A stretch of DNA of 64,000 nt from an uncultured virus (IMG/VR IMGVR_UViG_3300030099_006113) (IMGVR_UViG_3300030099_006113:1-64000); one strand, 5' to 3'. Positions 5,079 to 62,980 are shown, counted from the stretch's first letter. The notes: generated by a model not told the origin, from the letters alone. Numbers and translations are program-made.

Positions 5079-5092
5079 TTTGTCGCCCCTTC

Positions 5093-9300: not shown

Positions 9301-10069
9301 AGCCACCACTGGTGTCTTGCAGCGTTGCACCCGCCGTCTTTCCTTGCGCCACTGTTGTCGACGACGTGCAGTCAATGCTTCGGTACGTTATCTTGTTGGT
9401 CGATGGGTCTTGATAGATGAAGAATATTCGATTTGAGACTGCAAGGCATTGAGGCCTGGGGATGTCATAAAGCCTGTTGGTACCCGTGATTGCTATGTCG
9501 TAACCAGCCAAAAGTTTGTTTGACTGTATGATGGTGCCGGTTTCTATATCTTCGGCATCATACCTTACCTGGTATTGGTTGGTCACAGCGCCAGAGCTAA
9601 CCGAAGGATAAAACTGGTACTCAGCCCAGACATAAACCCTAATACCGTTTGCTTCTGCTATCTGCGCATTGCCCTGGCGACGGTCTGGGACTCGGCGCTT
9701 TACCTTGTTCTCCACCGTCATCGGCACAAAGGTGCCCTTATCTACCAAGACGTTTGTTGTCGGGGGTGCCGTTATCTTCGAGTACGCCCGGTTGCCATCA
9801 AATACCAGTGTCTCGTTTTGATACTGAACAATGCCAACACCAGAGGAGATAGAGCCCGAGTCGCCAACCGAGCCTCCGGTCCCTGCTGCAACGTAGTTTT
9901 GCGTGCTGTTTGTCAGGACAAACCCGCCGCGCTTTCTTAATTGACCTGTTTTCTCAAAATGAACATTGTCCGCAGCCTTGAGCGAATCAATGCCAAGAGA
10001 AGGCTCTGACGCCTTTTCGTTTATGCCCTTTGCCAGCGGGAACGACAATGTCTTCTTTTGCAGAGCCAT
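6335..10069 (-). CDS. Tail nozzle/tubular protein B-like (P22 gp10/T7 gp12-like position)
   Basis: ~1240 aa, beta-rich, N-terminal PLAKGINEK...RKRGG and YNYYFQQWS near the C-terminus. Homolog 43234..46560. Likely start overlaps the upstream stop (TGATG). Confidence 0.7.
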   Translation of the reverse strand: MALQKKTLSFPLAKGINEKASEPSLGIDSLKAADNVHFEKTGQLRKRGGFVLTNSTQNYVAAGTGGSVGDSGSISSGVGIVQYQNETLVFDGNRAYSKITAPPTTNVLVDKGTFVPMTVENKVKRRVPDRRQGNAQIAEANGIRVYVWAEYQFYPSVSSGAVTNQYQVRYDAEDIETGTIIQSNKLLAGYDIAITGTNRLYDIPRPQCLAVSNRIFFIYQDPSTNKITYRSIDCTSSTTVAQGKTAGATLQDTSGGSGVDIALDATYPIFSVDIAGTQTLASGGVLAYFTGSAFKIQYLEVSGTALNGTTVATVSITAAFAQYAKGPDTVLPSEIFVKTLSDSAAVGTAAIVFGCTANVGGTAKVHITLLSDNLANQVSFTDATNDQGGSGHLFLLAGTAGTLADGATDIYVPVSLVNGASAITAEAGAADRVSPHWSRIYKISISSRTISSISSSSISVYKDKMSYCSTITSDAFRVGSSLYFAMSVVNDNLLGEDILPDFRLRRGLSNTLAVVNHNGEIIGATKMGQCATCVTSEYVTLNPAQYTFADDGDSVQSNRRLWFGVQRVLKDASSNKYRFGASRFAGYINTSKDVAATTHNYDPDTIFGVSLVTCDFDPDRAIASADADGSLVLTGGVLHGYDGDRIFENDFVVSPSISRLVQSGASANTYVAGGTVRGFTNGLVLKYSVIYEWGDSNGNIYRSAPAPFNEVTIATGGVKTVGAVTGGSGYTNGTFDVTMGGGSGTGAVFNITVSGGAVQSVNSITSQGSGYANDEVLTFPNGSSGSVPISAVYNTNRVLVYVRPLPPALTRKGGITESYTIGGATHTPTGKGVNILVYRTESNGNIFYEVGSLPLLNEIGATGLQDEIAFVDMPPDHANVVNAEPLYTTDGTAQSGCFGSCTDLVKHQNKVFAAAIDDNVYMSVPLTDGEAVRFPADTSEFQINFPGDASKLTAIEGNLDHFVMFTEDNGFFVSGRGPDRLGAGAFPAPRLFASGQGAKPGAAHTDSPVGIFYQGERGIYLVGRDMSINYIGASVEDRTSKLAVNMLRHDPTNEVRIMLSNAGTSSGSDQYLIYNYYFQQWSRYTIAYTSSAHQIAEVYNGSSFQRLTADGKQWEQSTTVFQDNSTNYDMVVDTGFISPSGILKKDRVYRFMYLGEYMGAHEAEAQIYVDYKTGDEASPTLNITQAPSDIYLYRVHMPSQKNRAIRIKLVLSGSTEAARLNGIAFEVGIRPESTNFKTSQNRTY

Positions 10070-10380
10070 CAAAACACCCACAAGCTAATGATTGAGTTTG
10101 CCGCCATTTGCAGTGGCAGGTAGTTTTTAGGGTCAACGTTTTCTTCGTTCTTGATAATAACAGTGCCTGCCACTGTGGTGGACACAACAATATACCCCTT
10201 AGGCTTTCTGTTGAGCCCATGGTACACGCGAAAGGTTTCGCTGCGGGTTACCTCGATGTCCTCAAACAACCGGCCCGCAATGATGCCTGATTGCTGAAGC
10301 TCGCTTGCAAACAGCTCTACCTTGTCCTGAACCCTGTTCAGGTCGTAGTCTTGGGTTCTATATCTTTCAACCTCGACCAT
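10069..10380 (-). CDS. Small tail protein
   Basis: LNRVQ...HGLNR...GYIVV...LWVF; homolog 46560..46877. Confidence 0.7.
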   Translation of the reverse strand: MVEVERYRTQDYDLNRVQDKVELFASELQQSGIIAGRLFEDIEVTRSETFRVYHGLNRKPKGYIVVSTTVAGTVIIKNEENVDPKNYLPLQMAANSIISLWVF

Positions 10381-11120
10381 CAGTAGCTCTTGTAGTTGAT
10401 GTGGTCGTCAAGGTAGACGCCAGTTCTGACGTCGGTAATTTTGGAAGACTCGCCCGCGTCTCTATTTGCGGATGCCGCCTCAAGCCGTTTGCGCAATTGC
10501 TCTTTGTAGATCATGTGAGGCTGAGTGTTGGACTCTTCCTTCATCAAGCATTTGATGGCGGCATCTACCACCAAATACTCCTCGTAGCCTTTTGCGATTT
10601 GAGGAGCAAGGCTGACAATCGTTGCGCTGGTCGACCCCGCATCAAACTGTTGAGCTTCGGGAATATAGTGCAGCTTTGCAGTTCCAGATGTTGCCGGAGA
10701 AGGAATAAACTTAATCTTGTTTCCTTGAATGGCGTATCTGGTGTCTGCGATTCTGGATGCTACAATTGCAGGCGCATTGTACATGTTGCGCTCTTGGAAG
10801 GTAAATCTCATCATTCGGTAGGTTAAACCGCCGGATGTAAAATCAACCCCAAGTGCTTTATAGAAGTCTGTTGGAAGTGTGCCTGGGTTGTCGGCGGGGA
10901 GCGTATAGTCTCCAGACTTTGGGGACTCAGAGCTGTCTTTAACGTAGTAGTCTTCATACTTCGTCACCAGAAGATCGTGAATCTCTGCCATGGCCACGTT
11001 GATGTAGTCGACAACTTCCGAGTCTGAAACAAAGGTAGAGCCCACCATGTCAGCCCGCTGTCTTACGCGGGTGATGAGCTGGGCGAGGGTGGTAGTGTTA
11101 TTCGGCATCCAGCCCTCCAA
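10380..11120 (-). CDS. Head-tail adaptor/tubular protein A-like
   Basis: TLAQLITRVRQRAD...DYIN...HDLLV; position between capsid and nozzle; homolog 47169..47861. Confidence 0.7.
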   Translation of the reverse strand: MEGWMPNNTTTLAQLITRVRQRADMVGSTFVSDSEVVDYINVAMAEIHDLLVTKYEDYYVKDSSESPKSGDYTLPADNPGTLPTDFYKALGVDFTSGGLTYRMMRFTFQERNMYNAPAIVASRIADTRYAIQGNKIKFIPSPATSGTAKLHYIPEAQQFDAGSTSATIVSLAPQIAKGYEEYLVVDAAIKCLMKEESNTQPHMIYKEQLRKRLEAASANRDAGESSKITDVRTGVYLDDHINYKSY

Positions 11121-11124
11121 TAAA

Positions 11125-11149
11125 GGACCGGGGGCTTTCGCCCCCGTCC
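11125..11149 (-). terminator. GC hairpin with GAAA loop after capsid cluster
   Basis: Minus strand GGACGGGGGC-GAAA-GCCCCCGGTCC then TTTATT (weak U-tract). Confidence 0.5.
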
Positions 11150-11151
11150 AA

Positions 11152-11349
11152 TTAGTTCATACTGACGTCGTAGAGGTCCTGTAGCGCTTGCGCTACCATC
11201 TCTCCGTCGCCATCCGCGATAGCCTTGAGGAAAGCATCTCCTGCTTCTTTCTTGGCCATCCTTGAGTAGCCTTCACCCTCTTCTTTGCCTTCGGATGACT
11301 CCTTGGCTTTGTCGAGGATCATGACCGCCAGGTTACCTTGGTCGGGCAT
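11152..11349 (-). CDS. Small acidic hypothetical protein
   Basis: LAVMIL...AFLKAI...ALQD; homolog 47861..48091. Confidence 0.6.
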   Translation of the reverse strand: MPDQGNLAVMILDKAKESSEGKEEGEGYSRMAKKEAGDAFLKAIADGDGEMVAQALQDLYDVSMN

Positions 11350-11359
11350 TTTAGGCTCC

Positions 11360-11728
11360 TTAGGTTACACTGCTGTTTTTGAGCAGCAACATAAAAGTAA
11401 ACTCACCATCTGCTGGGGTCGCGTCTGCCGTCCCCGCAGTATCATGGGCTGCAAAAGTTACTGTTTTTGCGCTGGTGACATCATGCGCTTTTAGCCGCAT
11501 AAAGTCATCGTCATCAGCACCGGCAATATTTAGAGTAGCACCTGCATGGAGCAGCCCCGAATACTTGTCATCCAGCGTGATAATTACCACACCCGTCGAA
11601 AAGTCTCCGACAGTAAAGCCTGCGCCATCAGCAACTGTGCACTCACCGCTACTCACTGTGACGCGACCTGCAATAATTTTAAGCGCGCGCTCTAGCGCTT
11701 GCACGTTTTTAAAATCACGACTAGCCAT
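11360..11728 (-). CDS. Putative capsid decoration/minor structural protein
   Basis: Beta-rich, directly after the MCP; homolog 48139..48483 (IAG, G.GF, LD..Y.GLL). Confidence 0.55.
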   Translation of the reverse strand: MASRDFKNVQALERALKIIAGRVTVSSGECTVADGAGFTVGDFSTGVVIITLDDKYSGLLHAGATLNIAGADDDDFMRLKAHDVTSAKTVTFAAHDTAGTADATPADGEFTFMLLLKNSSVT

Positions 11729-11754
11729 AACTCATCTCCTTTCTTGGGTCTGAA

Positions 11755-12984
11755 TTAAGCCAATGCGATTCGGCAGTTGTAACCAGGTGCGTTGCAAGCC
11801 AGGTTTCCGTAGTACCCGAGGCGTACCTCGTAAGCATCTGCCGAATTTTCTCGAAGCATTTGGTTGTTGTCAAAGTCAAGGAACATTGGAGCTTCGCCCA
11901 AAGTGTTAAGGCTCCAGGTATCAAGCTGAAGCATCCACGCAATGTTTGGTTGCGCGTTTTGGTCAGGAATAATATCAATGATTCCTCGTGGTCCACGAAG
12001 AGCAATTGACGCAAATCCCATATCAACGTCACGAGCCTTAACTTCGCCGTACACAACCTTAGAGCTAAGAGCTTTTTCAATGTTTGCAAACGTCTTGAAG
12101 TCAACAAAGCAGTGAGTAGGAGCGCCACCTTCTCGACTTACGAGAGAAGCGCCTTCGATAAGAGCTTCTTCAATCGGAAGAGCGGAGCCGTCAAAACGCT
12201 GACCACCGAGACGAGACACGTCTGTGCTTCGGTCTTGGCTAAACAGGGTCTTGTTGTTTGTATCCAGAACGCGAGGAACCCACGCTTCTAGGCCGCTAAT
12301 TTTAACATTCAAGTCGCCCTTTTGAAGCACTTGGTTATGAAGCGCCGGCGAACCTGTTGTTCCCGAAACAGTAAACGTGCCCGCCGAGCGGTCAACCGCT
12401 GTAACCGTAAGGTCTCCACCAATCTGGTTTAGTGGATCTGGCTTACGGAATCGTGAATCCGTTGTTGATGTGGTTTGATGCTGGAAAACATTGAGCACCA
12501 TGCCAACTTCAAAGTTGGTAATGTCCTCGGCGTCAGTGAGCGTATATGTACCACTAGACTCGCTTGAGACGGTTCCGATAGAGCCTGTCCCGTCCCGATA
12601 CATTGACGTAGCCAAAGACCGAGTTAGCGAGTGCATTGCGCCGTCAATCTCCATGGTGGCGTAGCGCAAGAAAGCATCGCTGTCTCGCTCCGTAGCCTTG
12701 ATGGACTCGCCGGTAATGCTTGCGAATGAGTAATCCTTCACGCGTGTCAGTACAAATTGACCAAGCGAGGATGTAGAGTCTACGCCCTGACCGCTAGCGA
12801 ATGTTGCACTTCGTCGCTGCGGATTTCCGAAAATCAACGGAATGGGCATATTCTCGCCGCCGAACTTTGTGTACTTCGGCATAAGGGCGAGAAGCGGATT
12901 GTCTTTATAAACCATGTTCTGGACGCGAAGGGGCTTGTAGTGCTCCTTCAGCGCCTGGGTAACTGTTGCAATGTCGAGCGCCAT
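11755..12984 (-). CDS. Major capsid protein
   Basis: 409 aa after the scaffold; shares VTRVKDY-like, RLGGQR and YYGNL.C.APGYNCRIALA with 48495..49736. Confidence 0.85.
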   Translation of the reverse strand: MALDIATVTQALKEHYKPLRVQNMVYKDNPLLALMPKYTKFGGENMPIPLIFGNPQRRSATFASGQGVDSTSSLGQFVLTRVKDYSFASITGESIKATERDSDAFLRYATMEIDGAMHSLTRSLATSMYRDGTGSIGTVSSESSGTYTLTDAEDITNFEVGMVLNVFQHQTTSTTDSRFRKPDPLNQIGGDLTVTAVDRSAGTFTVSGTTGSPALHNQVLQKGDLNVKISGLEAWVPRVLDTNNKTLFSQDRSTDVSRLGGQRFDGSALPIEEALIEGASLVSREGGAPTHCFVDFKTFANIEKALSSKVVYGEVKARDVDMGFASIALRGPRGIIDIIPDQNAQPNIAWMLQLDTWSLNTLGEAPMFLDFDNNQMLRENSADAYEVRLGYYGNLACNAPGYNCRIALA

Positions 12985-13007
12985 TTCTTAACTCCAGTAA
13001 GTGCCGG

Positions 13008-13865
13008 TTATTCCCAGCGTAAAAGCGAGGCAGCGCGCTCCAGAGACTTTTCTTTGCTCTCTAGGGCACCGCTAGACGGTTCTGTTTTCTTAGCAGTGTT
13101 TTCATTGCTAAGTGTTTTTGGCCGTGATGATTTCGCTGTTTCGGCTTCTGGAGTCGCTTCTTCTGTTTCGGGCTCTTTTTGACTAGTGGCCCGCCACTTA
13201 TCTTGCAGCTTCTTGCTGCTCAGGTATCGCTCTGCTTCGGATTCAAAATGGCTTTCAACCATTTTTGCAGCGTCTGAATACTCCATGATCTCTTTCGTGC
13301 GGATGTAGTGCTGTTGCATAACTTCCGCGACGAGACCATAGGCATCATTCGACTGAATGAATTCGTAGTCACCACCATCGTCAACGAATTGCTTTACGTT
13401 GTCAATTAATTTGTTGCGGGCCGCCTGGGCCTGGGCCTGCTCGCGTTGCTTGTTTTCCTCGTTGTAGGCACCTTCAAGCTTCTCGATGCGAGCACGCAAA
13501 GCCTCGTTTTCGAGCTTTAATTTCTGGTCAGCCGTGGGCTCACCCTCGTTGATGACCTGCTGCGTCAAAGCATCGTAGTCAATCCCCAGTTTTTTTATCG
13601 CCTCGTAGGGGTTTTCTTTGGCTAGTGACTGAATTCCCGAATACTCATTTTTGTATCCCTGGACTTCGTTGTACTGGGCCTCAAGCTCCTTGAGCCTCGC
13701 CTCCCTGCTGCGCAGCTCCCTCTCTCTTCTTGCAATCGCCCCAAACTGACGAGAAAAGTCTGGCTTCTCTTCGACGGCTTCGGCGACTTCGGCGGCTTCC
13801 GTTGCCGCCTCTTCGACCGCCTCTTCTACAACCTCTGCCGGTGGTGCTTCCTGCTGCTCTTCCAT
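13008..13865 (-). CDS. Scaffolding protein
   Basis: Acidic coiled-coil between portal and MCP. Confidence 0.7.
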   Translation of the reverse strand: MEEQQEAPPAEVVEEAVEEAATEAAEVAEAVEEKPDFSRQFGAIARRERELRSREARLKELEAQYNEVQGYKNEYSGIQSLAKENPYEAIKKLGIDYDALTQQVINEGEPTADQKLKLENEALRARIEKLEGAYNEENKQREQAQAQAARNKLIDNVKQFVDDGGDYEFIQSNDAYGLVAEVMQQHYIRTKEIMEYSDAAKMVESHFESEAERYLSSKKLQDKWRATSQKEPETEEATPEAETAKSSRPKTLSNENTAKKTEPSSGALESKEKSLERAASLLRWE

Positions 13866-13874
13866 TTAAATCTC

Positions 13875-15689
13875 CTATGTTGGCATTGGGGCGGCCACTT
13901 GCTCTTGGGCCGCCTCTTGTCCTGATAAAGCGTTTGGCCGGGCGCCCTGCTGGGCAACATCTTGCTCCATTGGTGGCGCTGCGGCCTGTTGCTGCATTGA
14001 TGCGAGCATTGCGATAGAGTCCTGCAAGAACCTGCGCAGCAAATCGAGCCGAACCTCAGGCACGTTGTCTATCTTGGCCTTGAGATAGGCTGATTGGACC
14101 ATTTGGATGCCCATCGCCAGGTTCATAAACGGTTCCGGCGGATTGTAGCGTCCATTGCTGATTGCTTCGTCAATAATCTTGTTAAAAAGCTCCTGAGAAG
14201 CAGTCGCCAACTGGTTTACGGCTTCCAGGTCGGGGTAATCGAGCAGGGCGCGAGCCTCTTGCTGGGTGACCATGCCCGCTTGCAGCATTTCGATGACTTT
14301 TTGGAGCTTTGCGGCCGGTGTTGTTGGCAGCAGCGACGTTGGATAGACCTTCATAACGTATTCTGCGCTCTCTAGGTCTATTTCCTTCCAGTTGATGCGC
14401 TCTATGTTTTCATCGCCATGGCTAAACACCTCATAGGCGTCTCCGCGCTGTGCGACATCTCGTGCGATGTCAATCATCTGCTCTGCGGCTTCCAAAAAGA
14501 GGTTTTCGTAATCTTTGGCGACCATGATAAAGCGCTCGGTCTCAATGTCTTGGAACTCACGCAGCGCTACACCGGACTCAAGCCCGGCTGGCTTTTTGGA
14601 CTGCGCAGCAAGCACGCTGACGCCGGCAATCTCGTATGCACGAGTAAACAGCCGGTCTAGGTGTACAAAAATTTCCCCAGACACTGTCTTGGGTACAAAA
14701 AACGTTGGTGGTGTTCCGGCATACTCAATGATGCCCCAAATCTCGTTGTTGATGTGTGCCTTGGAGATTTTAGAGCCTGCTTCGACAAAAACCTTCGGCG
14801 TGGCCAGGTGCATTTGCTCCTGAATCATGCGCAGGAGCTTGTTGATTTCTACCTGAATGCCGGTGAGCTGTTCGGCTAACCCTTGGCCAAAAAAGCCCAA
14901 TAGGCGCTCGGTCCAGCGGATAAAGCAGAACGGGAAAGAGTGTCGCTCGTAGGAGTCATCCATGAGCGTGCAATTCTCAATAGCTATTACATGTCGTCCA
15001 TCGTTAGACTTCTTGGACGACGGGAGGTGCCACGCTTCGATGCATACAATCTGCTCACTAGCATGATTGTACTGAGTATCATCATCTTCATAATTAGACG
15101 CTTCATAAATCTTGTCCTTGGCCTCTGGAAATAAAGCTGCCAGTACATCCTTAGAGACCAGCTTCTGTTGGAACATCTGTCTTGGTTCTGAGTATCTGCA
15201 CTCAAGATCGTCGATGATAATCTCATCAATAAAGACCCTCTCAACCTTGATGTCTCCATCTTCTTCAAAGACCTTCATGGCCCCGGTGCCAAACACGCAG
15301 GCGTCCAGGAATACCTTAGGCGCGACCTTGTAGATGCCTGACTCGTAGAACTGGCCCTCGGTAAACTTGGTTAGGAGCTTTGCCTTTTGCTGCATGCTCC
15401 AGTCGCCACCGGATGTGAGGTAGGTTGCCATGGGTTTTGCCTTGGCCACCCGCGCTGTCACCGTGTCGCACATCGATTGGATGATGTTGAGCGTAACTCG
15501 GCTCTTGGTGTTCTTCACCATGGTCATCGAGTTTTGTAGGTCTGACAAGAATGCGTTGCCGTAGAGCCGCGCATGGTTAAAATTGTCTCTTTTTCGGTAC
15601 TTCTGGTTCTCTGTCAGTTGTTCAACCGTGTCAAAAACCATCTCATGCGGGTCTGTCTGGACGTTCCACCAGTATGTGCTCGGCTTCAT
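13875..15689 (-). CDS. Portal protein
   Basis: 604 aa after terL; DACVFGTG, FFGQGLAE, SKKPAGLESG; homolog 50664..52487. Confidence 0.85.
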   Translation of the reverse strand: MKPSTYWWNVQTDPHEMVFDTVEQLTENQKYRKRDNFNHARLYGNAFLSDLQNSMTMVKNTKSRVTLNIIQSMCDTVTARVAKAKPMATYLTSGGDWSMQQKAKLLTKFTEGQFYESGIYKVAPKVFLDACVFGTGAMKVFEEDGDIKVERVFIDEIIIDDLECRYSEPRQMFQQKLVSKDVLAALFPEAKDKIYEASNYEDDDTQYNHASEQIVCIEAWHLPSSKKSNDGRHVIAIENCTLMDDSYERHSFPFCFIRWTERLLGFFGQGLAEQLTGIQVEINKLLRMIQEQMHLATPKVFVEAGSKISKAHINNEIWGIIEYAGTPPTFFVPKTVSGEIFVHLDRLFTRAYEIAGVSVLAAQSKKPAGLESGVALREFQDIETERFIMVAKDYENLFLEAAEQMIDIARDVAQRGDAYEVFSHGDENIERINWKEIDLESAEYVMKVYPTSLLPTTPAAKLQKVIEMLQAGMVTQQEARALLDYPDLEAVNQLATASQELFNKIIDEAISNGRYNPPEPFMNLAMGIQMVQSAYLKAKIDNVPEVRLDLLRRFLQDSIAMLASMQQQAAAPPMEQDVAQQGARPNALSGQEAAQEQVAAPMPT

Positions 15690-15693
15690 TTAT

Positions 15694-15891
15694 TCACTCC
15701 ACTGAATAAAAAAGGTCTTCTTCATCATCTGGAATGCTCTCATCCACCAGAGCCCCCACAGGCACGGCCTGACTATAGCGCTGGCGCGGCTTTTCCCAGA
15801 GTTCTACTTCTATATCACCAACCCTCAGACGCTTGAGCCCGTGCTCTTGTGCCAGGGCTATTATCAATTCAACGTCCATTCTGATTCCCAC
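15694..15891 (-). CDS. Small conserved protein between terL and portal
   Basis: Homolog 52484..52750 (EH...EIE/EVE, acidic tail DLFYS/YLYWS). Confidence 0.55.
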   Translation of the reverse strand: MGIRMDVELIIALAQEHGLKRLRVGDIEVELWEKPRQRYSQAVPVGALVDESIPDDEEDLFYSVE

Positions 15892-17291
15892 CAGTCTTTC
15901 TCCGGCTCATATATCTTGTCTTCGATGCGCTGCATAATCTTGAACTCTTCTTGGGAGTATCCATCAGGGACGTAGTCTGTGTCGTCTTGAAATGTGTAGT
16001 GGCGGCTCTCCCGCCAGGCATAGAGGCAGGCATCGGACAGGTGGTTGTCAAACCGAGGGTCTTCCTTGCGTCGGTCTTCGTCCCATTGTAAAACATCCCA
16101 TTCGGCTAAGATGCTTTGGTCTAGTACCTTCACCCTGCCTGTCGCTAGATCGTCGTTCATTAGCTCTATGTAGCTGCCCTTGTTGCGCTTTTCCGCAGCC
16201 TTCAAGGGCAGCGAATAGCGCTTTCTAAACTCCTCGACAATCGACTTACCCAGGCCCCCGGTATCGGCCACCATGGTCGTAAACCCATAGATAGCGTCCA
16301 TATCCCGTATCGCCGCCGCAATATCCACCGGCAGCATGTGGCTCTTCTTGAATGCATCGACAATGTAGAAGTCAGGCAAGTCCCGACAAAAAGCCCCCAC
16401 CACCAGCGCCGTCGCATCTTCGTACCCAAGGTCAATCCCGAGCACGTACTCAAAATCAAACTCATCTAGGGGTACAGACTCGACTAAGTTCTCTTCGTTG
16501 TATTTGTAAATCAGTGAGTCATCCGAGCGCACCCACTTGCCCCGCCACTCACGCAGGTAGATGGGGTTATCCTCGGCCCACCTCTTTTGCTTACGCCTCT
16601 TGGCTAGCCACTCCCCAGCATGCGGAATGTGCGGGTTCTCCATGATGGTCCAGCTGTGGGTGGAATACTCCGACCTAATCCCAGTGGTGGCCTCATAGAA
16701 AATACCCGAGCAGTGAGCCGCCGGTGTCCCAATCATCGCAAGCGTTCCGTTGTGGTCAACAAGCGCTGGCTCCAAAACCTCTTCGATGAGCACCGACAAG
16801 TGCGGCCCGAACGACGCCGCCTCATCGATGATAACCAACCGGTACGCCGAGCCACGGAGCTTGTCGACCTCGGCCTCGTCATCCGCCCCCGCCAGAATAA
16901 TTTGAGAGCCATTCTTCAGCTCCGCCACCAGTTCAGCATTGTTGAACTTGATGTTCAGCATATACTTTCGGTCGGCCTTCTTAAGCTCCGCCCACATCAG
17001 TCGCTTGGCTGACCGCCTGGTCAATGCGATGTAGGCACAGATGATGTCCGGGGTCCGACTGGCCTCTTCAAGCAGGTAATAGCACGAAGCATACGTCTTC
17101 CCGCTTCGACGGCTGCACAGCGCCGTCTTGATCTGTGACTCGTCGTCAATAAACTTGAGCTGGTAATCAAACAAGTCATTGCGCCATTTGAAAGTACGAT
17201 GCCCTAGCTCGCGATTGTCTTCGAGCTTTGTCGTATCGCCAAACCGGCGAACATACTCCTGGAGTATGCTATCGGCATCATACTGCTTCAC
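15864..17291 (-). CDS. terL: Terminase large subunit
   Basis: Walker A CSRRSGKT, Walker B VIIDEAA, nuclease GIDLG and HLSDACLY. Confidence 0.95.
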   Translation of the reverse strand: MKQYDADSILQEYVRRFGDTTKLEDNRELGHRTFKWRNDLFDYQLKFIDDESQIKTALCSRRSGKTYASCYYLLEEASRTPDIICAYIALTRRSAKRLMWAELKKADRKYMLNIKFNNAELVAELKNGSQIILAGADDEAEVDKLRGSAYRLVIIDEAASFGPHLSVLIEEVLEPALVDHNGTLAMIGTPAAHCSGIFYEATTGIRSEYSTHSWTIMENPHIPHAGEWLAKRRKQKRWAEDNPIYLREWRGKWVRSDDSLIYKYNEENLVESVPLDEFDFEYVLGIDLGYEDATALVVGAFCRDLPDFYIVDAFKKSHMLPVDIAAAIRDMDAIYGFTTMVADTGGLGKSIVEEFRKRYSLPLKAAEKRNKGSYIELMNDDLATGRVKVLDQSILAEWDVLQWDEDRRKEDPRFDNHLSDACLYAWRESRHYTFQDDTDYVPDGYSQEEFKIMQRIEDKIYEPEKDWWESEWTLN

Positions 17292-18513: not shown

Positions 18514-18559
18514 GCTTCCTTACCATCCAGGCCCCCGAAAAGAGAGGTGCCATACATGT

Positions 18560-18588
18560 ATCGTATGGCAATGCAGTGCATTTGTCAA
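18560..18588 (-). promoter_or_regulatory. Sigma70-type promoter for late/packaging operon, overlapped by palindromic operator (18548-18570)
   Basis: Minus strand TTGACA-N17-TACGAT; palindrome TGCCATAC-N7-GTATGGCA. Confidence 0.7.
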
Positions 18589-18598
18589 AGAGGGAATA

Positions 18599-18614
18599 TG
18601 TTGCACGTGAAACA
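18599..18614. promoter_or_regulatory. parS-consensus site
   Basis: TGTTGCACGTGAAACA matches the chromosomal parS consensus TGTTNCACGTGAAACA. Confidence 0.65.
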
Positions 18615-18836
18615 AAAAAGAACCTGGACAAAAAACTTAGGCAAAAAATTTGAAACGGGGAGGTTAAGGCTAAGCCCTTGGAATCAAAAGGAAAGAACCT
18701 CGGCAAAAGAACCTAGGCGAAAAAATCAGAATGACCAGGTTCTTTATTCCCAGGAGGGAAAAGGGTGAGGGGAAAATTAGTTTTTGTGGCTATTAACGTT
18801 AGAGGGGTCCCCGGTGTCCGGGGTGGGATATCCGAT

Positions 18837-18904
18837 ATCCAACCGGTTGGTTAAACCTATCGGTTGGTTATATCGAGCGGTTGATAAAACCGACCGGTTG
18901 GTTT
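18837..18904. repeat. 4 x 17-bp tandem array of imperfect palindromes
   Basis: CGGTTG at 18844, 18861, 18878 and 18895; last unit AACCGACCGGTTGGTTT. Confidence 0.85.
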
Positions 18905-19515
18905 TGACGCAATGCGTCTGACATGCACCACATGTAGTGTAGTGCTACATAGGGCAACGTGTGGCAACGTATGGCAACCTTCAGGCTTCGCCTTCTGAGG
19001 TGAGTTCTCGGCCGGCCTAGGCCATAGGCCCAGTTAGGCCAGAAAGCCGCTCACAATCGATTCTAGGGGCCATGGCGCCCACTTGCGTCCCCTTGGGCCC
19101 TTGGGCCATGGCTAGGGCGCCCCTGGGGGGCAATTTAGGCGGTTTCACATATTTGTTGAGTGTTTTCAGGCACTTAGAGCCGAATTTGCAAGTATGCAGG
19201 GTATCGAATTTCCGAAAAGCTTAATGAAATCAGCAGGTTAGCTCACTTATAGGTTTAATATATATAATCTCTCTCTTTCTCTCTCTCTCTCTCTCCTACC
19301 GTTGCCTACCCGTTGCCCTTCCTTTGCCTCCCTGTCACCCTCCCGTTGCCTGCCTGTCTCACACTCGCTCACTCTCCCTGGGGCCCAAAACAGACAAAAA
19401 ACAAAGAAACGTACATTTTTCATTTTCCCCAACAATTCCACACACTTACGGCCCCATATTGCTTGCTGAGACGTCGAAAGTTTGTTGAAAACAACACCTA
19501 CCGTCAAACAATTGA

Positions 19516-19545
19516 TTGACGTTCATTCTCAAGTATGACCATAAT
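19516..19545 (+). promoter_or_regulatory. Putative sigma70 early promoter
   Basis: TTGACG-N18-CATAAT upstream of the first early ORF. Confidence 0.5.
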
Positions 19546-19583
19546 CAGGGGCGAGCAGAACACTAACCGAAAGGGTAACAATC

Positions 19584-19757
19584 ATGACACGTCGCGTCAA
19601 TCGGGTCGGAAAAGCAAACAGCAATGTTAAGTATTGGTTGGGCAAAATCACATTCTACCACTTGGGTGATTCGCCTCGAATGGTCACCGCCATTGCCAAG
19701 GACTTGAAGCAAGCGTACCGCGAATTGGAGGTTGCGCAAGCCATGGCTCAACAGTAG
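19584..19757 (+). CDS. Early hypothetical protein, 57 aa (not in ORF track)
   Basis: MTRRVNRVGK...AQAMAQQ; SD-like GAAAGGGT. Confidence 0.6.
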   Translation: MTRRVNRVGKANSNVKYWLGKITFYHLGDSPRMVTAIAKDLKQAYRELEVAQAMAQQ

Positions 19758-54254: not shown

Positions 54255-54705
54255 AAGCAACTCTTTGCTCTTCAGGCGAAGACATAAGCTCAAATATAAA
54301 AGCAGGAAGAAGACTACTTACAAAACGAGTGTGCCATTTAGACCGAGCATCCATTTTCTGCATATGAAAGGACCAATAAGAGCAAAAAACAGGGTTATCT
54401 CTATTACGCACTGTGTCAGGGTATACCTCATTGAGCATTTCACTGCCAATACCATTACCTCTGAAGCTTTTTTTAACAAAAAGAAAGTGCAGTAATTTTG
54501 TTTCTTCTATCTGGCCATAGGCAATCCAGCCTAAAATATGGTCAGCATCGTCTCGGTCGCAGTAAATAAGGACTTTTTCGTCCTCAATAACTTTATCAAT
54601 GAGGTGCCTAGTCATAGCAGTTACTGCTTTTGTGGGGCATTTCACAGATCTAATCCACGAATCATAGACAAAATCGTGGTCAATGGGTCTGATTCCTCTA
54701 ATCAT
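54247..54705 (-). CDS. GNAT-like acetyltransferase (phage B)
   Basis: FLFVKKSFRGNGIG. Confidence 0.65.
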   Translation of the reverse strand: MIRGIRPIDHDFVYDSWIRSVKCPTKAVTAMTRHLIDKVIEDEKVLIYCDRDDADHILGWIAYGQIEETKLLHFLFVKKSFRGNGIGSEMLNEVYPDTVRNRDNPVFCSYWSFHMQKMDARSKWHTRFVSSLLPAFIFELMSSPEEQRVAYG

Positions 54706-55030
54706 TGCTTGCCTTCCTTTCCCGAAGTGCCTTTTTCACGAGCTTTTCCAGCTCTTCATTCGACATCTTAGCAATAGCATCAGACTTTAATTGCGATTCA
54801 ATCTCTAACAATCGCTTTAAACCCCCGAAACAACTGTCTAATTTCTGCATATCTTTATTATCTAGCTCGCCATTATTGTCTACCTTGTCTTTTAAAAGGG
54901 ATATCTGGCTTTCTGTTATGTGAAATAAATCATCCCAAAGCTTATGCTTGTCTCTTGATTGAACAATCTGAGGCTTCTGCCCCATTACGCTGTAGGAACC
55001 AGTGGCTCTAGTCTTTTTTGTAGCTGTCAT
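54698..55030 (-). CDS. Terminase small subunit candidate (phage B)
   Basis: Helical; homolog of 17922..18272. Confidence 0.45.
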   Translation of the reverse strand: MTATKKTRATGSYSVMGQKPQIVQSRDKHKLWDDLFHITESQISLLKDKVDNNGELDNKDMQKLDSCFGGLKRLLEIESQLKSDAIAKMSNEELEKLVKKALRERKASND

Positions 55031-55639
55031 AAGAAAAGATTAGACGATGATTTGATCTACAGGCAAGTCAAAGCTAGAATACAAAGACCCCACAGCTACG
55101 GAGTAGACGCCAGTGACCCAACGGGTCACCCTTTAGGCGGACACGCAACCCTTGTCGCCCTTCTGTCCGTTTCGTACCTAACGATAAGACATTACCCAGT
55201 TGGATATCGGCAAGGGCAACGGGCGTAGCTCACCGTTGCAGCACAATATAGGTATCCAATCCTACGGGCTTTTTAGGTCAATCCGAGGGGGGGTGCTTGA
55301 GGGATCTCGATAACGCACTGCGATAAACGAAAATTAGGCAAAAATTCGTAGAGGGTATTTAACACTCTATTGACTTTGCTCTCTGGGGGGTACCCCCTGA
55401 CTATATTGCACTGTAACCGGCAGTAGCGGATGTCCACTGTCATTCCTTGGGCCGTCAGACCTCCGCTCATCGCTCGGCCTGGTCGCTCCGCGAGTGAATT
55501 ACACCTCACGAAAATAAACAACTTTCCCATGTTTTCCCTGTATTCCTTGGTATTTTAACCTTTCGTACAGATCAAAACAGTTCGGTTAATTCACAAAAGG
55601 TGCCCGGATACGTTCGTCACTTCCCACCCTCCCACCCTA

Positions 55640-56400
55640 CGGCGTGCGTTGCCCTCACGATGCCTCCGGCGGCGCCTACCCGGCGGGGGCAAACGTGCGA
55701 CGTTTGATCCGACACCCCCGCCCCCTAGAGAACCTGCGACTCTCGAGCAGGACTACCGACGCTCCCGAAGCCATTGAGTACAATGTCTCCGACAGCTTAC
55801 GAGTCCTGCACTCGGCCACACGTTCTCTCCACCGCAAGTCCGAGAACCTTGGCAATGTTCTTCGCGGGATCTGCATGCCTCATTAGTCGATAGGCCCGCT
55901 CAATGGACTAACGACGCCTGAGTACAGGCTTACGAGTCCATGGGCAGCTACCTGCATCTCTCCGGGATACTATCAAGCTGAATTACCCGCTAGAATCAGA
56001 GCCACTAACGACGCCTCCGGCTTACGAGTGGCCCTAGATTCGCTACCAGCTCAGAACACTCCGGGCAGGCGAGTACGCCCGCCTTGCCTCGGAATCGGAC
56101 GTAGGGTTGTGACAGGAAGGTCTAATCCTACACTCCTGTGCTCTATCTATCTCTATCTCTCGAATTAATCGGCGTGAGTCTACCAGCCGTCGTCGGGCGG
56201 TAAAGGACGGGCGAGTACGCCCGCCAGCCTCTGCGAATAGACACAAAAGATACGGAGTACCGTACTTTTGCATCGATTCTTGATTCTGGTTAACGAAGGC
56301 CCACACGACTGCTTGGCTGAGTACAGCCAATCAGGCGCTTAATCGGGCCTTCTAATCCTTGACCGTCCTCCTCCGTCTGGGTCTGCAAGGCCTCACTTAA
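55640..56400. ncRNA. Candidate large structured non-coding element (RNA or ssDNA)
   Basis: Six hairpins with G-AGTA-C loops and three T-AMCGAC...TTACG-A internal-loop motifs, all with different complementary stems. Confidence 0.6.
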
Positions 56401-56469
56401 TTCAAGAAGAAATCGTAAAAAACATAAACAAAACTTACGGTTTCGTAACACTCAAAAAAGGAAGACAAC

Positions 56470-57102
56470 ATGTCATTGACTCAAAAGTTACTAGCTAAGC
56501 ACGGCGCTAAGATGTCCAACAAAGCACTGTCCGCTGCAACAACTGGCCAGCACAAGCCAGCGCCTCTTGACCAGTCTCGCCTGTCCATTGCCTTCGAATT
56601 CATTGAGGTGGTAGCCACCATCCAGGTGATGTTTGAGCGTCAAATGGCTCCCGCAGGGTCAGGTGAAGCCTGCAAGGAAGCATGGAAGGAAATCAAGCAG
56701 GCTCTTCGCAAGCCTAGCGGTGAACACGGCCGCTTTTGGCGCGAGATACACACAGCCTGCGACGCGCACGGCGTCGACTGGTTCGCAGACGGCGGCGCTG
56801 ACGCTAAGCTGGCTGCGGTCCACTCCATCCGGGTATCACGCGGAGACGTTACGGAAGACGGTCGTGAGGCTCCGACCCCGGACATGGCGGACTTGCCCCA
56901 GGATCCCGAGCCGCGATGGATTGACTGTCCGGCACCGGACGTCACCGACGCCGTGCACGAGGACTACGACGAGGTCCAGGCTAACCGACTCAGCGAGGTC
57001 GGGGCGCACTTCGCCGCAGTTGCGGAGGATGTCGCGTCGTACGGACGCATGTGCAACGGGGTCTGGGTGATGGATCACCTGGACACCGACCCGCTCCTCT
57101 AA
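56470..57102 (+). CDS. First early gene of phage B, hypothetical, GC-rich
   Basis: A-rich leader with AAGGA; followed by a terminator. Confidence 0.7.
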   Translation: MSLTQKLLAKHGAKMSNKALSAATTGQHKPAPLDQSRLSIAFEFIEVVATIQVMFERQMAPAGSGEACKEAWKEIKQALRKPSGEHGRFWREIHTACDAHGVDWFADGGADAKLAAVHSIRVSRGDVTEDGREAPTPDMADLPQDPEPRWIDCPAPDVTDAVHEDYDEVQANRLSEVGAHFAAVAEDVASYGRMCNGVWVMDHLDTDPLL

Positions 57103-61854: not shown

Positions 61855-62295
61855 ATGGTAAGAATCACAAAGTCTCAAATTGATAAGCTAAGAAAAGGCG
61901 TGCAGATGATCATTGATATTCTTGATGAGCTAGATGCTATGCCTGCAAAGAATCGCTTTCGACAAGATGCTTTTGAGGTTCTTTCCTACTATCAAAAAGT
62001 TCACCCCAGGAAGGGCCGTAACGTTGTTGCTGGTCACCCATCATTCAAGCTCATCATTGCAAGACTAAAAGACGGGTTCTCTGTCTCGGAATTGAACAAA
62101 GCAATTGATGGCAACTTGAAAGATGAGTGGCACAGCAGCAACCCTGGCGGCCATGGTCTTACCTACGTATTTAGAAACCAAGAAAAAGTAGAACGATTCA
62201 TTGAAGTAGCGGGTGGTAAAACACCAAACAAAAAAGGAAACCATGCAGGCAGCAAGGAGTTTAAGCATGGCAAGCAAAGACTTGACTTCGATTAG
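61855..62295 (+). CDS. Replication-initiator-like protein (conserved phage C-terminal domain)
   Basis: IIARLKDGFSVSELNKAID...W...LTYVFR; directly upstream of the DnaC-like gene. Confidence 0.6.
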   Translation: MVRITKSQIDKLRKGVQMIIDILDELDAMPAKNRFRQDAFEVLSYYQKVHPRKGRNVVAGHPSFKLIIARLKDGFSVSELNKAIDGNLKDEWHSSNPGGHGLTYVFRNQEKVERFIEVAGGKTPNKKGNHAGSKEFKHGKQRLDFD

Positions 62296-62980
62296 TGAGC
62301 AAGTGATGAGCGCCTATGAGCGTCTCAAGAACGATGGAAGAATTGAGATTGTAGATGAATCAAAGTTTGAAATGGATCTTGAAAGTGTTTCTAAGTTTGA
62401 CTTGCTTTCATCTCAGGGTTTACCAAAAAGACTTTTGAAGAATCTTCATTCATCTTTTCAGTCTACCTATGCAACTAAAAGTGTTGATGAGTTTCATGGA
62501 TCTGATGATAACGCCTGGTGTCTTGTTTTGTCTGGAGACAAAGGTTGCGGCAAAAGCACCGCAGCAGCTTATTGGCTGTACAGCATCCTAACCTACCCTC
62601 GAACAGAGTATGACAAAAGAAGAGTCACCACCAAGACTCGCCGATGGTACTCCTCTTCTCGTATACAAAGAATCTCTGATTACAAAGAGAATGGATCTGA
62701 GCTCGAGAAATTGTTTGTTGTCCCTCATCTGGTTATTGATGATCTTGGAGTGGAGTACCTTGATGCCAAAGGATACACCCAGAAGAGATTTGATGAGATC
62801 CTTGATGAGCGATACAGCAACTTTCGCAAGACCCTAATTACCACTAACCTGAATGCAAGAGACTTCAGGGATAGATATGGAACCCGGATCTTTGATAGAA
62901 TCAGGGAGGGACTTTCAAGCGGGGGAGCATTTGTCGAAATCGGAGAAAAATCTTACAGGGCAGAAAAGAATGGTAAGTGA
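62213..62980 (+). CDS. DnaC/IstB-like helicase loader ATPase
   Basis: GDKGCGKS, LVIDDLGVE, ERY, ITTNL, RIFDRI. Confidence 0.85.
   Translation: MVKHQTKKETMQAARSLSMASKDLTSISEQVMSAYERLKNDGRIEIVDESKFEMDLESVSKFDLLSSQGLPKRLLKNLHSSFQSTYATKSVDEFHGSDDNAWCLVLSGDKGCGKSTAAAYWLYSILTYPRTEYDKRRVTTKTRRWYSSSRIQRISDYKENGSELEKLFVVPHLVIDDLGVEYLDAKGYTQKRFDEILDERYSNFRKTLITTNLNARDFRDRYGTRIFDRIREGLSSGGAFVEIGEKSYRAEKNGK

What the first reader, a model, noticed from the sequence alone, without database searches (positions are those of the whole stretch)
55640..56400. ~750-nt multi-motif structured element with six G-AGTA-C hairpins and three covarying internal-loop modules
Seen, hairpins: CATTG-AGTA-CAATG (55772-55785), GCCTG-AGTA-CAGGC (55916-55929), GGCAGGCG-AGTA-CGCCCGCC (56064-56083), CGGGCG-AGTA-CGCCCG (56208-56223), CAAAAGATACGG-AGTA-CCGTACTTTTG (56244-56270) and TTGGCTG-AGTA-CAGCCAA (56313-56330). 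The loop is the same in six different stems. Seen, internal-loop modules: GCAGGACT-ACCGAC-GCT...AGC-TTACG-AGTCCTGC (55747-55809), ATGGACT-AACGAC-GCC...GGC-TTACG-AGTCCAT (55903-55941) and GCCACT-AACGAC-GCC-TCC-GGC-TTACG-AGTGGC (56001-56032), with a partial copy at 55657-55670. An enclosing stem GAAGGCCC/GGGCCTTC spans 56295-56352. Conserved loops with compensatory stems imply selection on single-stranded structure. Two A.C mismatches become G.U on the minus strand, hinting at a minus-strand RNA with UACU loops. I recognise no known family. Inference: a large phage ncRNA (protein sponge, loop-receptor scaffold or antiterminator) or an ssDNA entry/origin element.
Basis: partly seen in the sequence, partly recalled or inferred. 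Interest (0 to 1): 0.85.

Follow-up and report, generated by a model that had tools for sequence, protein, structure and literature searches.

The report
Large ornate noncoding RNA, marine phage
A marine phage carries, between its early genes and its terminase operon, what looks like a large, heavily folded noncoding RNA of an undescribed family, decorated with repeated hairpins and a repeated internal-loop motif whose purpose is still unknown.

Summary
All six GAGTAC sites of the region are hairpin loops, all three internal-loop modules are real, and the enclosing stem is real. They lie in a 1,439-nt ORF-free gap (55031-56469) between the late (terminase) operon and the early genes of a ~34-kb uncultured marine phage.

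Five related sequences from viromes and metagenomes keep the element at about 84% nucleotide identity, where the terminase gene next to it keeps about 71%. Whole hairpins and modules come and go between them as clean insertions. Stems covary. G.U pairs, fold energies and z-scores all point to the minus strand, the strand of the terminase operon.

No Rfam 15 family matches, and no conserved ORF explains the pattern.

Best reading: a new family of large (at least 0.7 kb, perhaps ~1 kb) structured phage RNA. It has a conserved core (P1, helix 4, H2 arm). The lineage-specific parts are UACU-capped hairpins and a module, 5'-ACU-CG-UAA-G / Y-GU-CG-KU-AGU-3', laid out like the 11-nt tetraloop receptor.

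Transcription, the RNA's ends and its function are not shown. A standalone ornate RNA (GOLLD/ROOL-like), a cis-acting leader of the late operon and an ssDNA element remain as alternatives. The family is rare: six or seven sequences.

The parts
55031..56469 (-). ORF-free gap between the late operon (110-aa gene 54698-55030, GNAT acetyltransferase, TerL; minus strand) and the early genes (56470 onward; plus strand)
   Evidence: GC-rich relative to the flanks
55712..56412 (-). Block A: the conserved structured element (the finding). About 84% identical to the copy in G001
56397..56407 (-). P1, 5' strand (CUUGAAUUAA). A long-range helix that closes the 5' domain
   Evidence: (I8). A-U changes to G-C on both sides in L053 (pair 12/430)
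56158..56168 (-). P1, 3' strand (UUAAUUCGAG)
56183..56380 (-). 5' domain closed by helix 4 (CCAGACGGAGGAGGACGGUCAAGGA / UCCUU..CGACGGCUGG). The only part of block A also found in the distant relative L006
56295..56352 (-). H1: UACU hairpin (56313-56330) inside the enclosing stem. Absent as one clean gap in L034 and L100. In L053 a ~230-nt insert with nested modules sits at this site
56222..56291 (-). H2 arm: a 70-nt extended hairpin with the UACU loop at 56255-56260 and an invariant tandem U.G/G.U. The most widely conserved piece
   Evidence: A6 and model R2: 91.7 bits on the minus strand against 22 on the plus strand
56205..56226 (-). H3: UACU hairpin. In L100 and L053 a full module replaces it. 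A natural variant shows a compensatory pair of changes, 56210 G>A with 56221 C>T
56141..56163 (-). Purine-rich linker (GAGAGAUAGAGAUAGAUAGAG), conserved and predicted to be unpaired
56064..56083 (-). H4: UACU hairpin with a G.U pair on the minus strand. It lies inside a 25-nt segment missing from L034 and L027
55997..56036 (-). Module 1 (CCACU-CGUAA-GCC-GGA-GGC-GUCGUU-AGUGG)
55903..55941 (-). Module 2, capped by UACU hairpin H5 (55916-55929)
55747..55809 (-). Module 3, with a 30-nt arm ending in UACU hairpin H6 (55772-55785). The arm and H6 show compensatory changes
   Evidence: helix 25
55724..55830 (-). 3' domain: a long helix (GAGAGAAC..GUUCUCU) enclosing module 3
   Evidence: I12; helix 24: 25 pairs, 100% of cells paired
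55398..55711 (-). Region B: a variable stretch not alignable between homologs. Possibly the 3' part of the RNA
55385..55397 (-). G/C hairpin GGGGGUACCCCCC. Terminator-like in relatives, where a T run follows it; the window has no T run
55031..55384 (-). Block C: leader of the 110-aa gene. It holds a conserved motif (55339-55358) and a covarying hairpin (55112-55131). It is conserved far beyond block A

Best explanation
Block A (55712-56412, minus strand) is the core of a large, highly structured noncoding RNA of an undescribed family. It is transcribed in the direction of the terminase operon.

**Ends (inferred).** The 5' end lies in the A/T-rich 60 nt upstream of P1, about 56410-56470. In most relatives the 3' end is probably the G/C hairpin with a T run that corresponds to 55385-55397. 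That gives about 0.9-1.0 kb.

**Architecture.** The RNA has a conserved core of P1, helix 4 and the H2 arm. Onto this core lineage-specific peripheral elements have been added and lost:
- hairpins closed by G-C and capped by UACU;
- an asymmetric internal-loop module, 5'-ACU-CG-UAA-G / Y-GU-CG-KU-AGU-3'.

**Proposed role of the peripheral elements (inferred).** I take them to be tertiary-contact elements that hold a compact fold together, within one RNA or between copies. Peripheral loop-receptor pairs do this in group I and II introns and RNase P, and bridges do it in GOLLD and ROOL.

**Status of each step.**
- Shown: the structure is conserved, it covaries, and it is strand-specific.
- Inferred: it is RNA rather than ssDNA, where it starts and ends, and that the modules make tertiary contacts.
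- Unknown: what the RNA does for the phage. My guess is a standalone late or middle RNA like GOLLD or ROOL.
For: **1. Motif statistics.** 23 of 23 GTACTC sites in block A of four homologs are hairpin loops, and none lies on the opposite strand.

**2. Module.**
- There are 23 instances across the window and five related loci (3, 3, 3, 2, 5 and 7 copies), with an invariant loop and varying stems.
- On nine distinct copies, 98.3% of cells are paired. Six pairs change on both sides, and 0 of 500 shuffles reach this. Slid controls give 21-41% paired.
- The module model hits only the element in the 64-kb window.

**3. Whole element (A4, 4 sequences).**
- 203 pairs, 97.8% of cells paired.
- 9 pairs change on both sides, against 3.6 +/- 1.3 in shuffles (0 of 500) and 0-3 in slid controls.
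- Caveat: the structure was derived from this same alignment.

**4. Strand.**
- RNAalifold gives -426 kcal/mol for the minus strand and -356 for the plus strand. In the minus-strand consensus there are 103 G.U cells and 3 A.C cells.
- Single-sequence z-scores are -3.9 to -6.7 (minus) against -1.5 to -4.0 (plus) in 4 of 4 homologs. The tool's own folds give -6.57 against -3.09.
- The tandem U.G/G.U in the H2 arm is invariant in 5 of 5 sequences.

**5. Clean gain and loss of whole hairpins and modules at helix ends.** This includes a module nested inside another module.

**6. Conservation.** Block A is 84.5% identical to G001 over 588 nt. The TerL DNA is about 71% identical, and the region 54440-55360 is 67.5%. 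TerL protein identity is 70%.

**7. Natural variants in a sequencing run.**
- 56210 G>A with 56221 C>T keeps a pair in H3.
- 55775 T>C gives G.U only on the minus strand.

**8. Distant relative L006.** It keeps only the 5' domain, with compensatory changes G-C to A-U and A-U to C-G.

**9. Not coding.**
- Gaps between homologs of 25, 1 and 2 nt break any reading frame.
- No open frame is conserved.
- The translated match of the window's 80-aa ORF to G001 is 63% identical, below the DNA identity.

**10. 3' end.** A terminator-like hairpin is flagged on the RNA strand in 2 of 2 homologs scanned.
Against: - **No evidence of transcription.** No listed sequencing run that holds the stretch is on record as RNA.
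- **No promoter.** No convincing promoter was found on the minus strand, and the host is unknown.
- **No T run in the window.** The window's own copy of the G/C hairpin lacks a T run and is not flagged as a terminator.
- **Few, close sequences.** Only four full-length and two partial homologs at 80-90% identity, plus one distant partial one. Covariation counts are therefore small.
- **Possible recombination.** The higher identity of block A could reflect recent exchange between mosaic phages rather than constraint.
- **No docking test.** Nothing tests whether UACU loops dock on the modules. The loops are not GNRA, and the receptor's key A is a G here.
- **No partner protein.** No protein co-occurs with the element.
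Confidence: 0.6

Rival explanations
1. It is a cis-acting leader of the late (terminase/structural) operon. The late transcript starts upstream of block A. The folded RNA then controls read-through of the G/C hairpin terminator at 55385-55397 by processive antitermination, as the HK022 put RNA does, or it sets the timing or stability of late mRNA.
For: - The element has the same strand and direction as the late operon and lies directly upstream of it.
- A terminator-like hairpin sits between the element and the first late gene in relatives.
- Block C, downstream on the same strand, is also conserved and has a covarying hairpin.
- The neighbouring early gene differs between homologs while the late side is syntenic.
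Against: - The cis-antiterminator RNAs I recall (put, nut, EAR) are 50-130 nt, not 700-1000 nt.
- A motif conserved in 13 of 13 relatives lies after the terminator (ACCCTCYATGAATTTTT). It could be the real late promoter, which would make block A a separate unit.
- Relatives without block A have the same terminator and block C, so late expression does not need block A.
- L006 has further terminator-like sites inside its gap.
Confidence: 0.2
2. It is a single-stranded DNA element. The minus strand, exposed during replication, recombination or packaging, folds into hairpins that proteins recognise, as at an ssDNA initiation signal, an origin or a packaging site.
For: - It lies in the divergent control region of the genome.
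- The equivalent gap of the other phage in the record holds iteron-like repeats.
- The phage encodes Sak4-type annealing, SSB-like and RusA proteins.
- DNA hairpins also tolerate some G.T pairs.
Against: - The structure has 103 wobble cells, including an invariant tandem U.G/G.U. G.T wobbles are much weaker in DNA.
- The structure includes long-range helices enclosing 170-400 nt, and conserved asymmetric internal loops. This is typical of folded RNA, not of extruded DNA hairpins.
- The replication initiator and DnaC-like loader genes lie 5-6 kb away (61855-62980). In lambdoid phages, as I recall, the origin lies inside the initiator gene.
- No direct-repeat iterons occur in block A.
Confidence: 0.08
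3. It is a multi-site decoy or sponge RNA. The repeated hairpin-plus-module unit is a binding site for one protein of the host or the phage, and the RNA titrates or assembles many copies of it.
For: - The loop, the flanking ACU/AGU pairs and the first G-Y pair of the module are invariant in 23 of 23 copies while the stems vary. This is the pattern of sequence-specific recognition.
- The copy number varies from 3 to 7.
Against: - No protein co-occurs with the element in the two phages that could be compared.
- The motif is not the CsrA type: there is only one GGA loop per RNA, and GGA is not enriched by my own rough count, which no call checked.
- L006 keeps the core without any module, so the modules are not what is conserved most deeply.
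Confidence: 0.12

Closest known systems
GOLLD and ROOL RNAs (large ornate RNAs of phages and prophages)
   Same: - Hundreds of nucleotides long, many-helix and phage-encoded.
- A conserved part sits beside variable, poorly conserved parts.
- Function unknown.
- Both known RNAs assemble through kissing loops and A-minor contacts (PMC12286853, passages read).
   Different: - No match to any Rfam 15 model.
- Not next to tRNA genes: there are none in the window.
- Built from one repeated loop and one repeated internal-loop module.
- Very rare: six or seven sequences, all marine.
- Multimer formation is untested.
11-nt GAAA tetraloop receptor (CCUAAG / UAUGG)
   Same: The layout is the same: two Watson-Crick pairs, then U-A-A on one strand facing two nucleotides on the other, then a G.U or G-C pair. 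Here this reads CG-UAA-G / Y-GU-CG. The receptor sequence, the A4-A5 platform and the flipped-out U9 are from bioRxiv 10.1101/2024.03.11.584472 (passages read).
   Different: - The receptor's A8 is G here.
- C2-G10 is G-C here.
- An extra 2-nt bulge (KU) and invariant ACU/AGU pairs follow.
- The repeated loops are UACU, not GAAA or GNRA.

The module is receptor-like in layout only and is not a member of that motif.
Peripheral elements of group I/II introns and RNase P
   Same: Whole hairpins and loop/receptor elements are gained and lost at helix tips while the core stays (recalled general knowledge). The same pattern is seen here.
   Different: No intron or RNase P model matches. There are no flanking exons or interrupted gene.
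HK022 put / lambda nut leader RNAs
   Same: Structured RNA upstream of phage genes that lie behind a terminator (recalled).
   Different: Those are 50-130 nt with one or two hairpins. This element is at least 700 nt with about 25 helices. Antitermination is not tested.
phi29 pRNA
   Same: A phage noncoding RNA linked to the packaging machinery that multimerises by loop-loop pairing (recalled). The element here lies next to the terminase genes, and its loops contain the self-complementary GUAC if the closing pair is counted.
   Different: No pRNA model of Rfam matched. The element is four to six times longer. No link to packaging is shown.

Membership tests
Any Rfam 15 family (includes GOLLD, ROOL, OLE, HEARO, raiA, pRNA, group I/II introns, riboswitches) | Covariance-model score at or above the family's gathering score | tested here: not met
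   - 0 matches in the whole window at gathering scores.
- In 54900-56600 at E <= 10 there are only three weak hits, all far below their cut-offs: snoZ169 20.2 against 55, PhotoRC-I 17.2 against 45, Yar_3 11.4 against 50.
- 0 matches at E <= 0.1 in six related loci.
11-nt tetraloop receptor | Sequence CCUAAG / UAUGG, with A8 pairing to U3 and contacting the loop | tested here: not met
   The module reads CGUAAG / YGUCG in 23 of 23 copies. UAAG is kept, but A8 is G.
11-nt tetraloop receptor | A GAAA (GNRA) tetraloop partner in the same RNA | tested here: not met
   The repeated loops are UACU in 23 of 23 GTACTC hairpins. The caps on modules are UACU, GGA, GCA or CUU.
11-nt tetraloop receptor | A-A platform and docking shown by structure or probing | not testable with these tools
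   Needs DMS/SHAPE probing with and without Mg2+, or a solved structure.
N4-type DNA hairpin promoters | 5-7 bp stem with a 3-nt loop, read by a giant virion RNA polymerase (features recalled) | tested here: not met
   - The loops are 4 nt.
- The largest ORFs are 1084-1248 aa and have no polymerase family match.
- The last 4 kb of the record was compared with four related genomes only, not scanned against protein families.
CsrB/RsmZ-type protein sponge | Many GGA motifs presented in hairpin loops (feature recalled) | tested here: not met
   There is one GGA loop per RNA, the cap of module 1. All other repeated loops are UACU.
Protein-coding gene | An open frame kept in homologs, with gaps in multiples of three | tested here: not met
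   - Gaps of 25, 1 and 2 nt occur between homologs.
- The longest open frames differ in place and frame between homologs.
- The window's 95-aa ORF matches G001 over only 24 aa.
Genome-wide mobile hairpin element (MITE/REP-like) | Copies scattered over the genome or over other genomes | tested here: not met
   - The module model hits only the element in the window.
- Pattern scans of viral, metagenome and genome collections gave multi-copy loci only at homologous sites.
- Two weak module-like motifs occur in L014.
Large structured ncRNA (generic kind) | Conserved secondary structure with covariation, strand asymmetry, no coding frame | tested here: met
Large structured ncRNA (generic kind) | The RNA is made | not testable with these tools
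   No RNA run is listed as holding the stretch. The four runs laid are DNA contigs.

The most novel reading that the evidence does not exclude
This is a new class of phage-encoded ornate RNA that builds its shape from one reusable 'plug and socket' pair. The UACU hairpins would be the plugs and the 11-nt-receptor-like modules the sockets.

In every homolog the loops are at least as many as the modules (6:3, 4:3, 5:5, 8:7). Units can be duplicated, nested and swapped at helix tips.

Such an RNA could close on itself, or link copies into an RNA-only assembly of the GOLLD/ROOL kind. It would be made beside the terminase genes of a small marine podophage-like virus. It would also add a natural, non-GNRA loop-receptor pair to the known set of RNA tertiary motifs.
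Probability: 0.2. Interest if true: 0.88.

Novelty: new variant of a known kind. Interest (0 to 1): 0.7.

Why it matters
Very few large (over 500 nt), highly structured bacterial or phage RNAs are known, and the ones that have been solved proved surprising: GOLLD and ROOL form cages and OLE forms a dimer (PMC12286853).

A further family would be a good object for structure work and for RNA design, for three reasons:
- It has a simple modular make-up.
- Its repeated internal loop resembles the classic tetraloop receptor but pairs with a different loop.
- Whole units visibly come and go between close relatives.

It also flags a locus that carries long, strongly folded noncoding DNA in several lineages: the gap between the early and late genes of this uncultured marine phage group (z about -11 and -12 in two relatives). 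That locus may hide a general but undescribed layer of phage biology.

Tried and rejected
**Known families and sequence look-ups**
- Rfam at gathering scores and at permissive thresholds on the window and on relatives: nothing.
- tRNA/tmRNA scan: none.
- blastn of the gap against 50,697 phage records: no match.
- TerL against the same records: 27% identity or less, so no cultured relative and no host.
- Earlier findings of this scan: none.

**Searches for more family members**
- Strict and relaxed module patterns were scanned in viral contigs, metagenome contigs and genome contigs. A core pattern was scanned in viral contigs.
- Beyond six or seven homologous loci, all hits were single chance matches.
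- All 80 genome-contig loci listed (of 106 stretches found) held a single match, and nhmmer found no homolog among the loci stored from that scan.
- Model R2 found no further copy in 24 sources.
- Model R1 on five relatives' records gave only two weak hits.

**Expression**
- No RNA holder is listed among 20 runs.
- The four runs laid are DNA contigs and say nothing on expression.

**Promoters**
- The sigma-70 scan found no minus-strand promoter in the window gap. My manual candidates are weak and not conserved.

**Partner protein**
- No gene is shared by the two element-bearing phages and absent from two relatives without it, apart from three small ORFs that the other phage of the record (phage 1), which lacks the element, also encodes.
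- The divergent early gene is not conserved with the element.

**Ideas considered and dropped**
- The loops base-pair with the module: no complementarity, checked by eye.
- CsrA sponge: GGA is not enriched, by a rough hand count only.
- tRNA anticodon-loop mimic: the loop size and positions 33 and 37 do not fit.
- K-turn or sarcin-ricin motif on either strand: no tandem G.A or GAA partner, checked by eye and from recalled consensus.
- PhotoRC-I: 17.2 bits against a cut-off of 45.

- (wrong strand argument) was corrected.
- (too much sequence) was reduced.
- (bad search term) was dropped.
- The stitched subject failed its overlap check, so only the identities of its local matches are used.

Full report
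**Setting**

The window is the first 64 kb of a 68,173-nt IMG/VR virus record.

PHROG matches show two complete sets of terminase, portal and major head genes. One lies at 616-17291 and the other at 33441-54293, both on the minus strand. The last ~2.5 kb of each half encode proteins 85-96% identical to each other. The record is therefore two related ~34-kb phage genomes joined head to tail, probably by the assembler.

The finding lies in the second genome, in a 1,439-nt gap without any credible ORF (55031-56469).
- To the left, on the minus strand, lie a 110-aa gene, a GNAT acetyltransferase and TerL.
- To the right, on the plus strand, lie the early genes.

The gap and the first early ORF form a GC-rich island, with GC 0.55-0.66 against about 0.42 around it. 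The best cultured relative of TerL is only 27% identical, so the host is unknown.

**The observation**

- GAGTAC occurs 30 times in the window against 15.9 +/- 3.8 expected. Six copies sit within 550 nt, all on the plus strand, and all are the loop and closing pair of 5-8 bp hairpins.
- The 'partial copy' at 55657-55670 is a one-sided 17-nt similarity that a covariance model of the module does not recover.

**Relatives**

TerL-based and motif-based scans followed by nhmmer found block A in these places:
- G001, a 30.7-kb viral contig (loci L034, L044, L078);
- two near-identical short viral contigs (L027 and L028);
- L039;
- two metagenome contigs (L100 and L053).

Wider scans added nothing: a relaxed pattern in viral and prokaryote genome collections, and a core pattern. 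A more distant relative, L006 (TerL 71% identical), shares only the 5' domain and block C.

Block A is 84.5% identical between the window and G001. The terminase DNA is about 71% identical, and the small late genes plus block C are 67.5%. TerL protein identity is 70%. Either block A is under stronger constraint than the proteins, or it was exchanged recently. I cannot tell these apart.

**Structure**

The homologs differ mainly by clean presence or absence of whole structural units:
- The 58-nt unit of enclosing stem plus hairpin (56295-56352) is missing in L034 and L100. In L053 a ~230-nt insert holding one module nested inside another takes its place.
- Hairpin H4 lies in a 25-nt segment missing from L034.
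- Hairpin H3 is replaced by a full module in L100 and L053.
- An extra module follows module 2 in L039, L100 and L053.
- L053 has a further UACU hairpin.

Counting all copies, 23 of 23 GTACTC sites in four homologs are hairpin loops and none lies on the other strand.

The module occurs 23 times, in 3, 3, 3, 2, 5 and 7 copies. Read on the minus strand, it has an invariant core: 5'-ACU-CG-UAA-G ... Y-GU-CG-KU-AGU-3'.

| Alignment | Pairs | Cells paired | Pairs changed on both sides | Shuffles reaching this | Slid controls |
|---|---|---|---|---|---|
| Nine distinct module copies (A3) | 18 | 98.3% | 6 | 0 of 500 | 21-41% paired |
| Four full-length sequences, RNAalifold consensus (A4) | 203 | 97.8% | 9 (3.6 +/- 1.3 in shuffles) | 0 of 500 | 0-3 such pairs |

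The A4 structure was derived from the same alignment, so that test is not independent.

A long-range helix P1 (56397-56407 with 56158-56168) closes the 5' domain. It changes A-U to G-C in L053. This places the 5' end of the folded molecule at or beyond 56407.

The H2 arm is kept in L006 with two compensatory changes and a different loop, CGUG.

A population variant seen in one sequencing run changes 56210 G>A together with 56221 C>T, its pairing partner in H3. The same variant changes 55775 T>C, which is a G.U pair only on the minus strand.

**Strand**

- Minus-strand folds are better in every test: -365 against -297 kcal/mol, z -6.57 against -3.09.
- Z-scores are -3.9 to -6.7 against -1.5 to -4.0 in four of four homologs.
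- RNAalifold gives -426 against -356 kcal/mol.
- The minus-strand consensus holds 103 G.U cells and 3 A.C cells. The plus-strand consensus holds 39 G.U and 19 A.C.
- A tandem U.G/G.U in the H2 arm is invariant.

The functional strand is therefore that of the late operon.

**Not coding and not mobile**

- Gaps of 25, 1 and 2 nt, shifting open frames, and a translated identity below the DNA identity all rule out a conserved ORF.
- The module is not scattered. Its model hits only the element in the window, and the collection scans gave multi-copy loci only at homologous sites. Two weaker, differently capped module-like motifs lie in a complex repeat-rich gap of relative L014.

**The rest of the gap**

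- Region B (about 55398-55711) is not alignable between homologs.
- A short G/C hairpin follows (55385-55397). In 11 of the 13 aligned relatives it is followed by a T-rich tail. It is flagged as terminator-like in G001 and L006, but not in the window, which lacks the T run.
- After it comes block C. It holds a motif conserved in all 13 relatives aligned (ACCCTCYATGAATTTTT) and a hairpin whose stem differs in each subgroup. Block C ends at the start codon of the 110-aa gene.

This layout suggests that block A plus region B form a unit ending at the hairpin, and that block C is a separate leader or control region of the late operon. That is an inference. No promoter was identified.

**Mechanism**

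What is shown is a conserved, strand-specific, many-helix fold with a stable core and exchangeable tips.

The module's layout matches that of the 11-nt tetraloop receptor, CCUAAG/UAUGG. Both have two Watson-Crick pairs, then UAA facing two nucleotides, then a G-Y pair (passages).

The receptor's key A is G here, however, and the loops are UACU rather than GAAA. The module is therefore receptor-like and not a member of that motif.

UACU loops are never fewer than modules: 6:3, 4:3, 5:5 and 8:7. L006 keeps the core without modules.

I therefore take the hairpins and modules to be peripheral tertiary-contact elements, working within one RNA or between copies. This is untested.

GOLLD and ROOL are the nearest known things. 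They are large phage RNAs with variable regions that assemble through loop and A-minor bridges. No Rfam model matches this element, and there are no tRNA genes nearby.

**Rivals**

- A cis-acting late leader or antiterminator: 0.2.
- A multi-site protein sponge: 0.12.
- An ssDNA element: 0.08.

The evidence for and against each is given in the fields above.

**Literature**

Three full-text searches for a description of such an RNA found none. They covered large or ornate phage RNAs, structured RNAs in viromes, and R-scape in phage contexts.

I read passages of PMC12286853 and of bioRxiv 10.1101/2024.03.11.584472, and otherwise only search listings. Features of put, nut, N4 promoters, CsrB, pRNA and intron peripheral elements are recalled, not checked.

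**Verdict**

This is a real, non-random, conserved structured element. It is most likely a new family of large phage noncoding RNA on the minus strand. The family is rare, has no expression data, and its function is open.

Noticed in passing
window 1-33400 versus 33400-64000, plus G000 64001-68173: The record holds two related ~34-kb phage genomes head to tail, with two TerL/portal/head sets. Proteins of 64.8-67.7 kb are 85-96% identical to those of 31.0-33.4 kb. The join probably runs through a shared module and may be an assembly chimera.
   Followed up: partly
window 55031-55384 (minus strand): Block C upstream of the 110-aa (possibly small terminase) gene.
- The motif ATACCCTCTACGAATTTTTG (55339-55358) is conserved in 13 of 13 relatives aligned.
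- The stem of a hairpin (55112-55131) differs in each subgroup.
- An invariant GGCGTCTACTCCGTAGC follows it.

It could be a late promoter, a leader RNA or a packaging site.
   Followed up: partly
L006 2255-3560 and L007 2045-3135: The gaps at the same locus in two relatives fold exceptionally well on the TerL-sense strand: z -10.8 and -12.1 (12 shuffles each), at GC 0.56 and 0.53. No Rfam match. L007 shows no sequence similarity to block A. These may be other large structured RNAs at the same place.
   Followed up: partly
L014 1-1700 (minus strand of the locus; record G002): A repeat-rich noncoding region.
- Three copies of a GCGCCCCC..GGGGGCGC hairpin unit.
- Short tandem repeats.
- Two module-like motifs (660-774) with CGUAA / GUCGNU loops and a shared GAGUGCAUCCGA cap.

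The motifs are in the opposite orientation to TerL.
   Followed up: no
window 18514-19584: The equivalent gap of the first phage holds iteron-like CCGGTTGGTT repeats (about 18840-18900) and a (CT)n run (about 19268-19295). It lies beside a small helix-turn-helix-like ORF. It looks like an origin or operator region and has nothing in common with block A.
   Followed up: no
window 56470-57102: The first early ORF (210 aa) has GC 0.59-0.66 in a phage of about 0.42. It has no family match and is replaced by an unrelated 135-153-aa gene in the homologs. With the element it forms a GC-rich island.
   Followed up: partly
window 56141-56163 (minus strand): A purine-rich run, GAGAGAUAGAGAUAGAUAGAG, is conserved in all homologs and predicted to be unpaired. 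L006 has a similar AG-rich run after its 5' domain.
   Followed up: no
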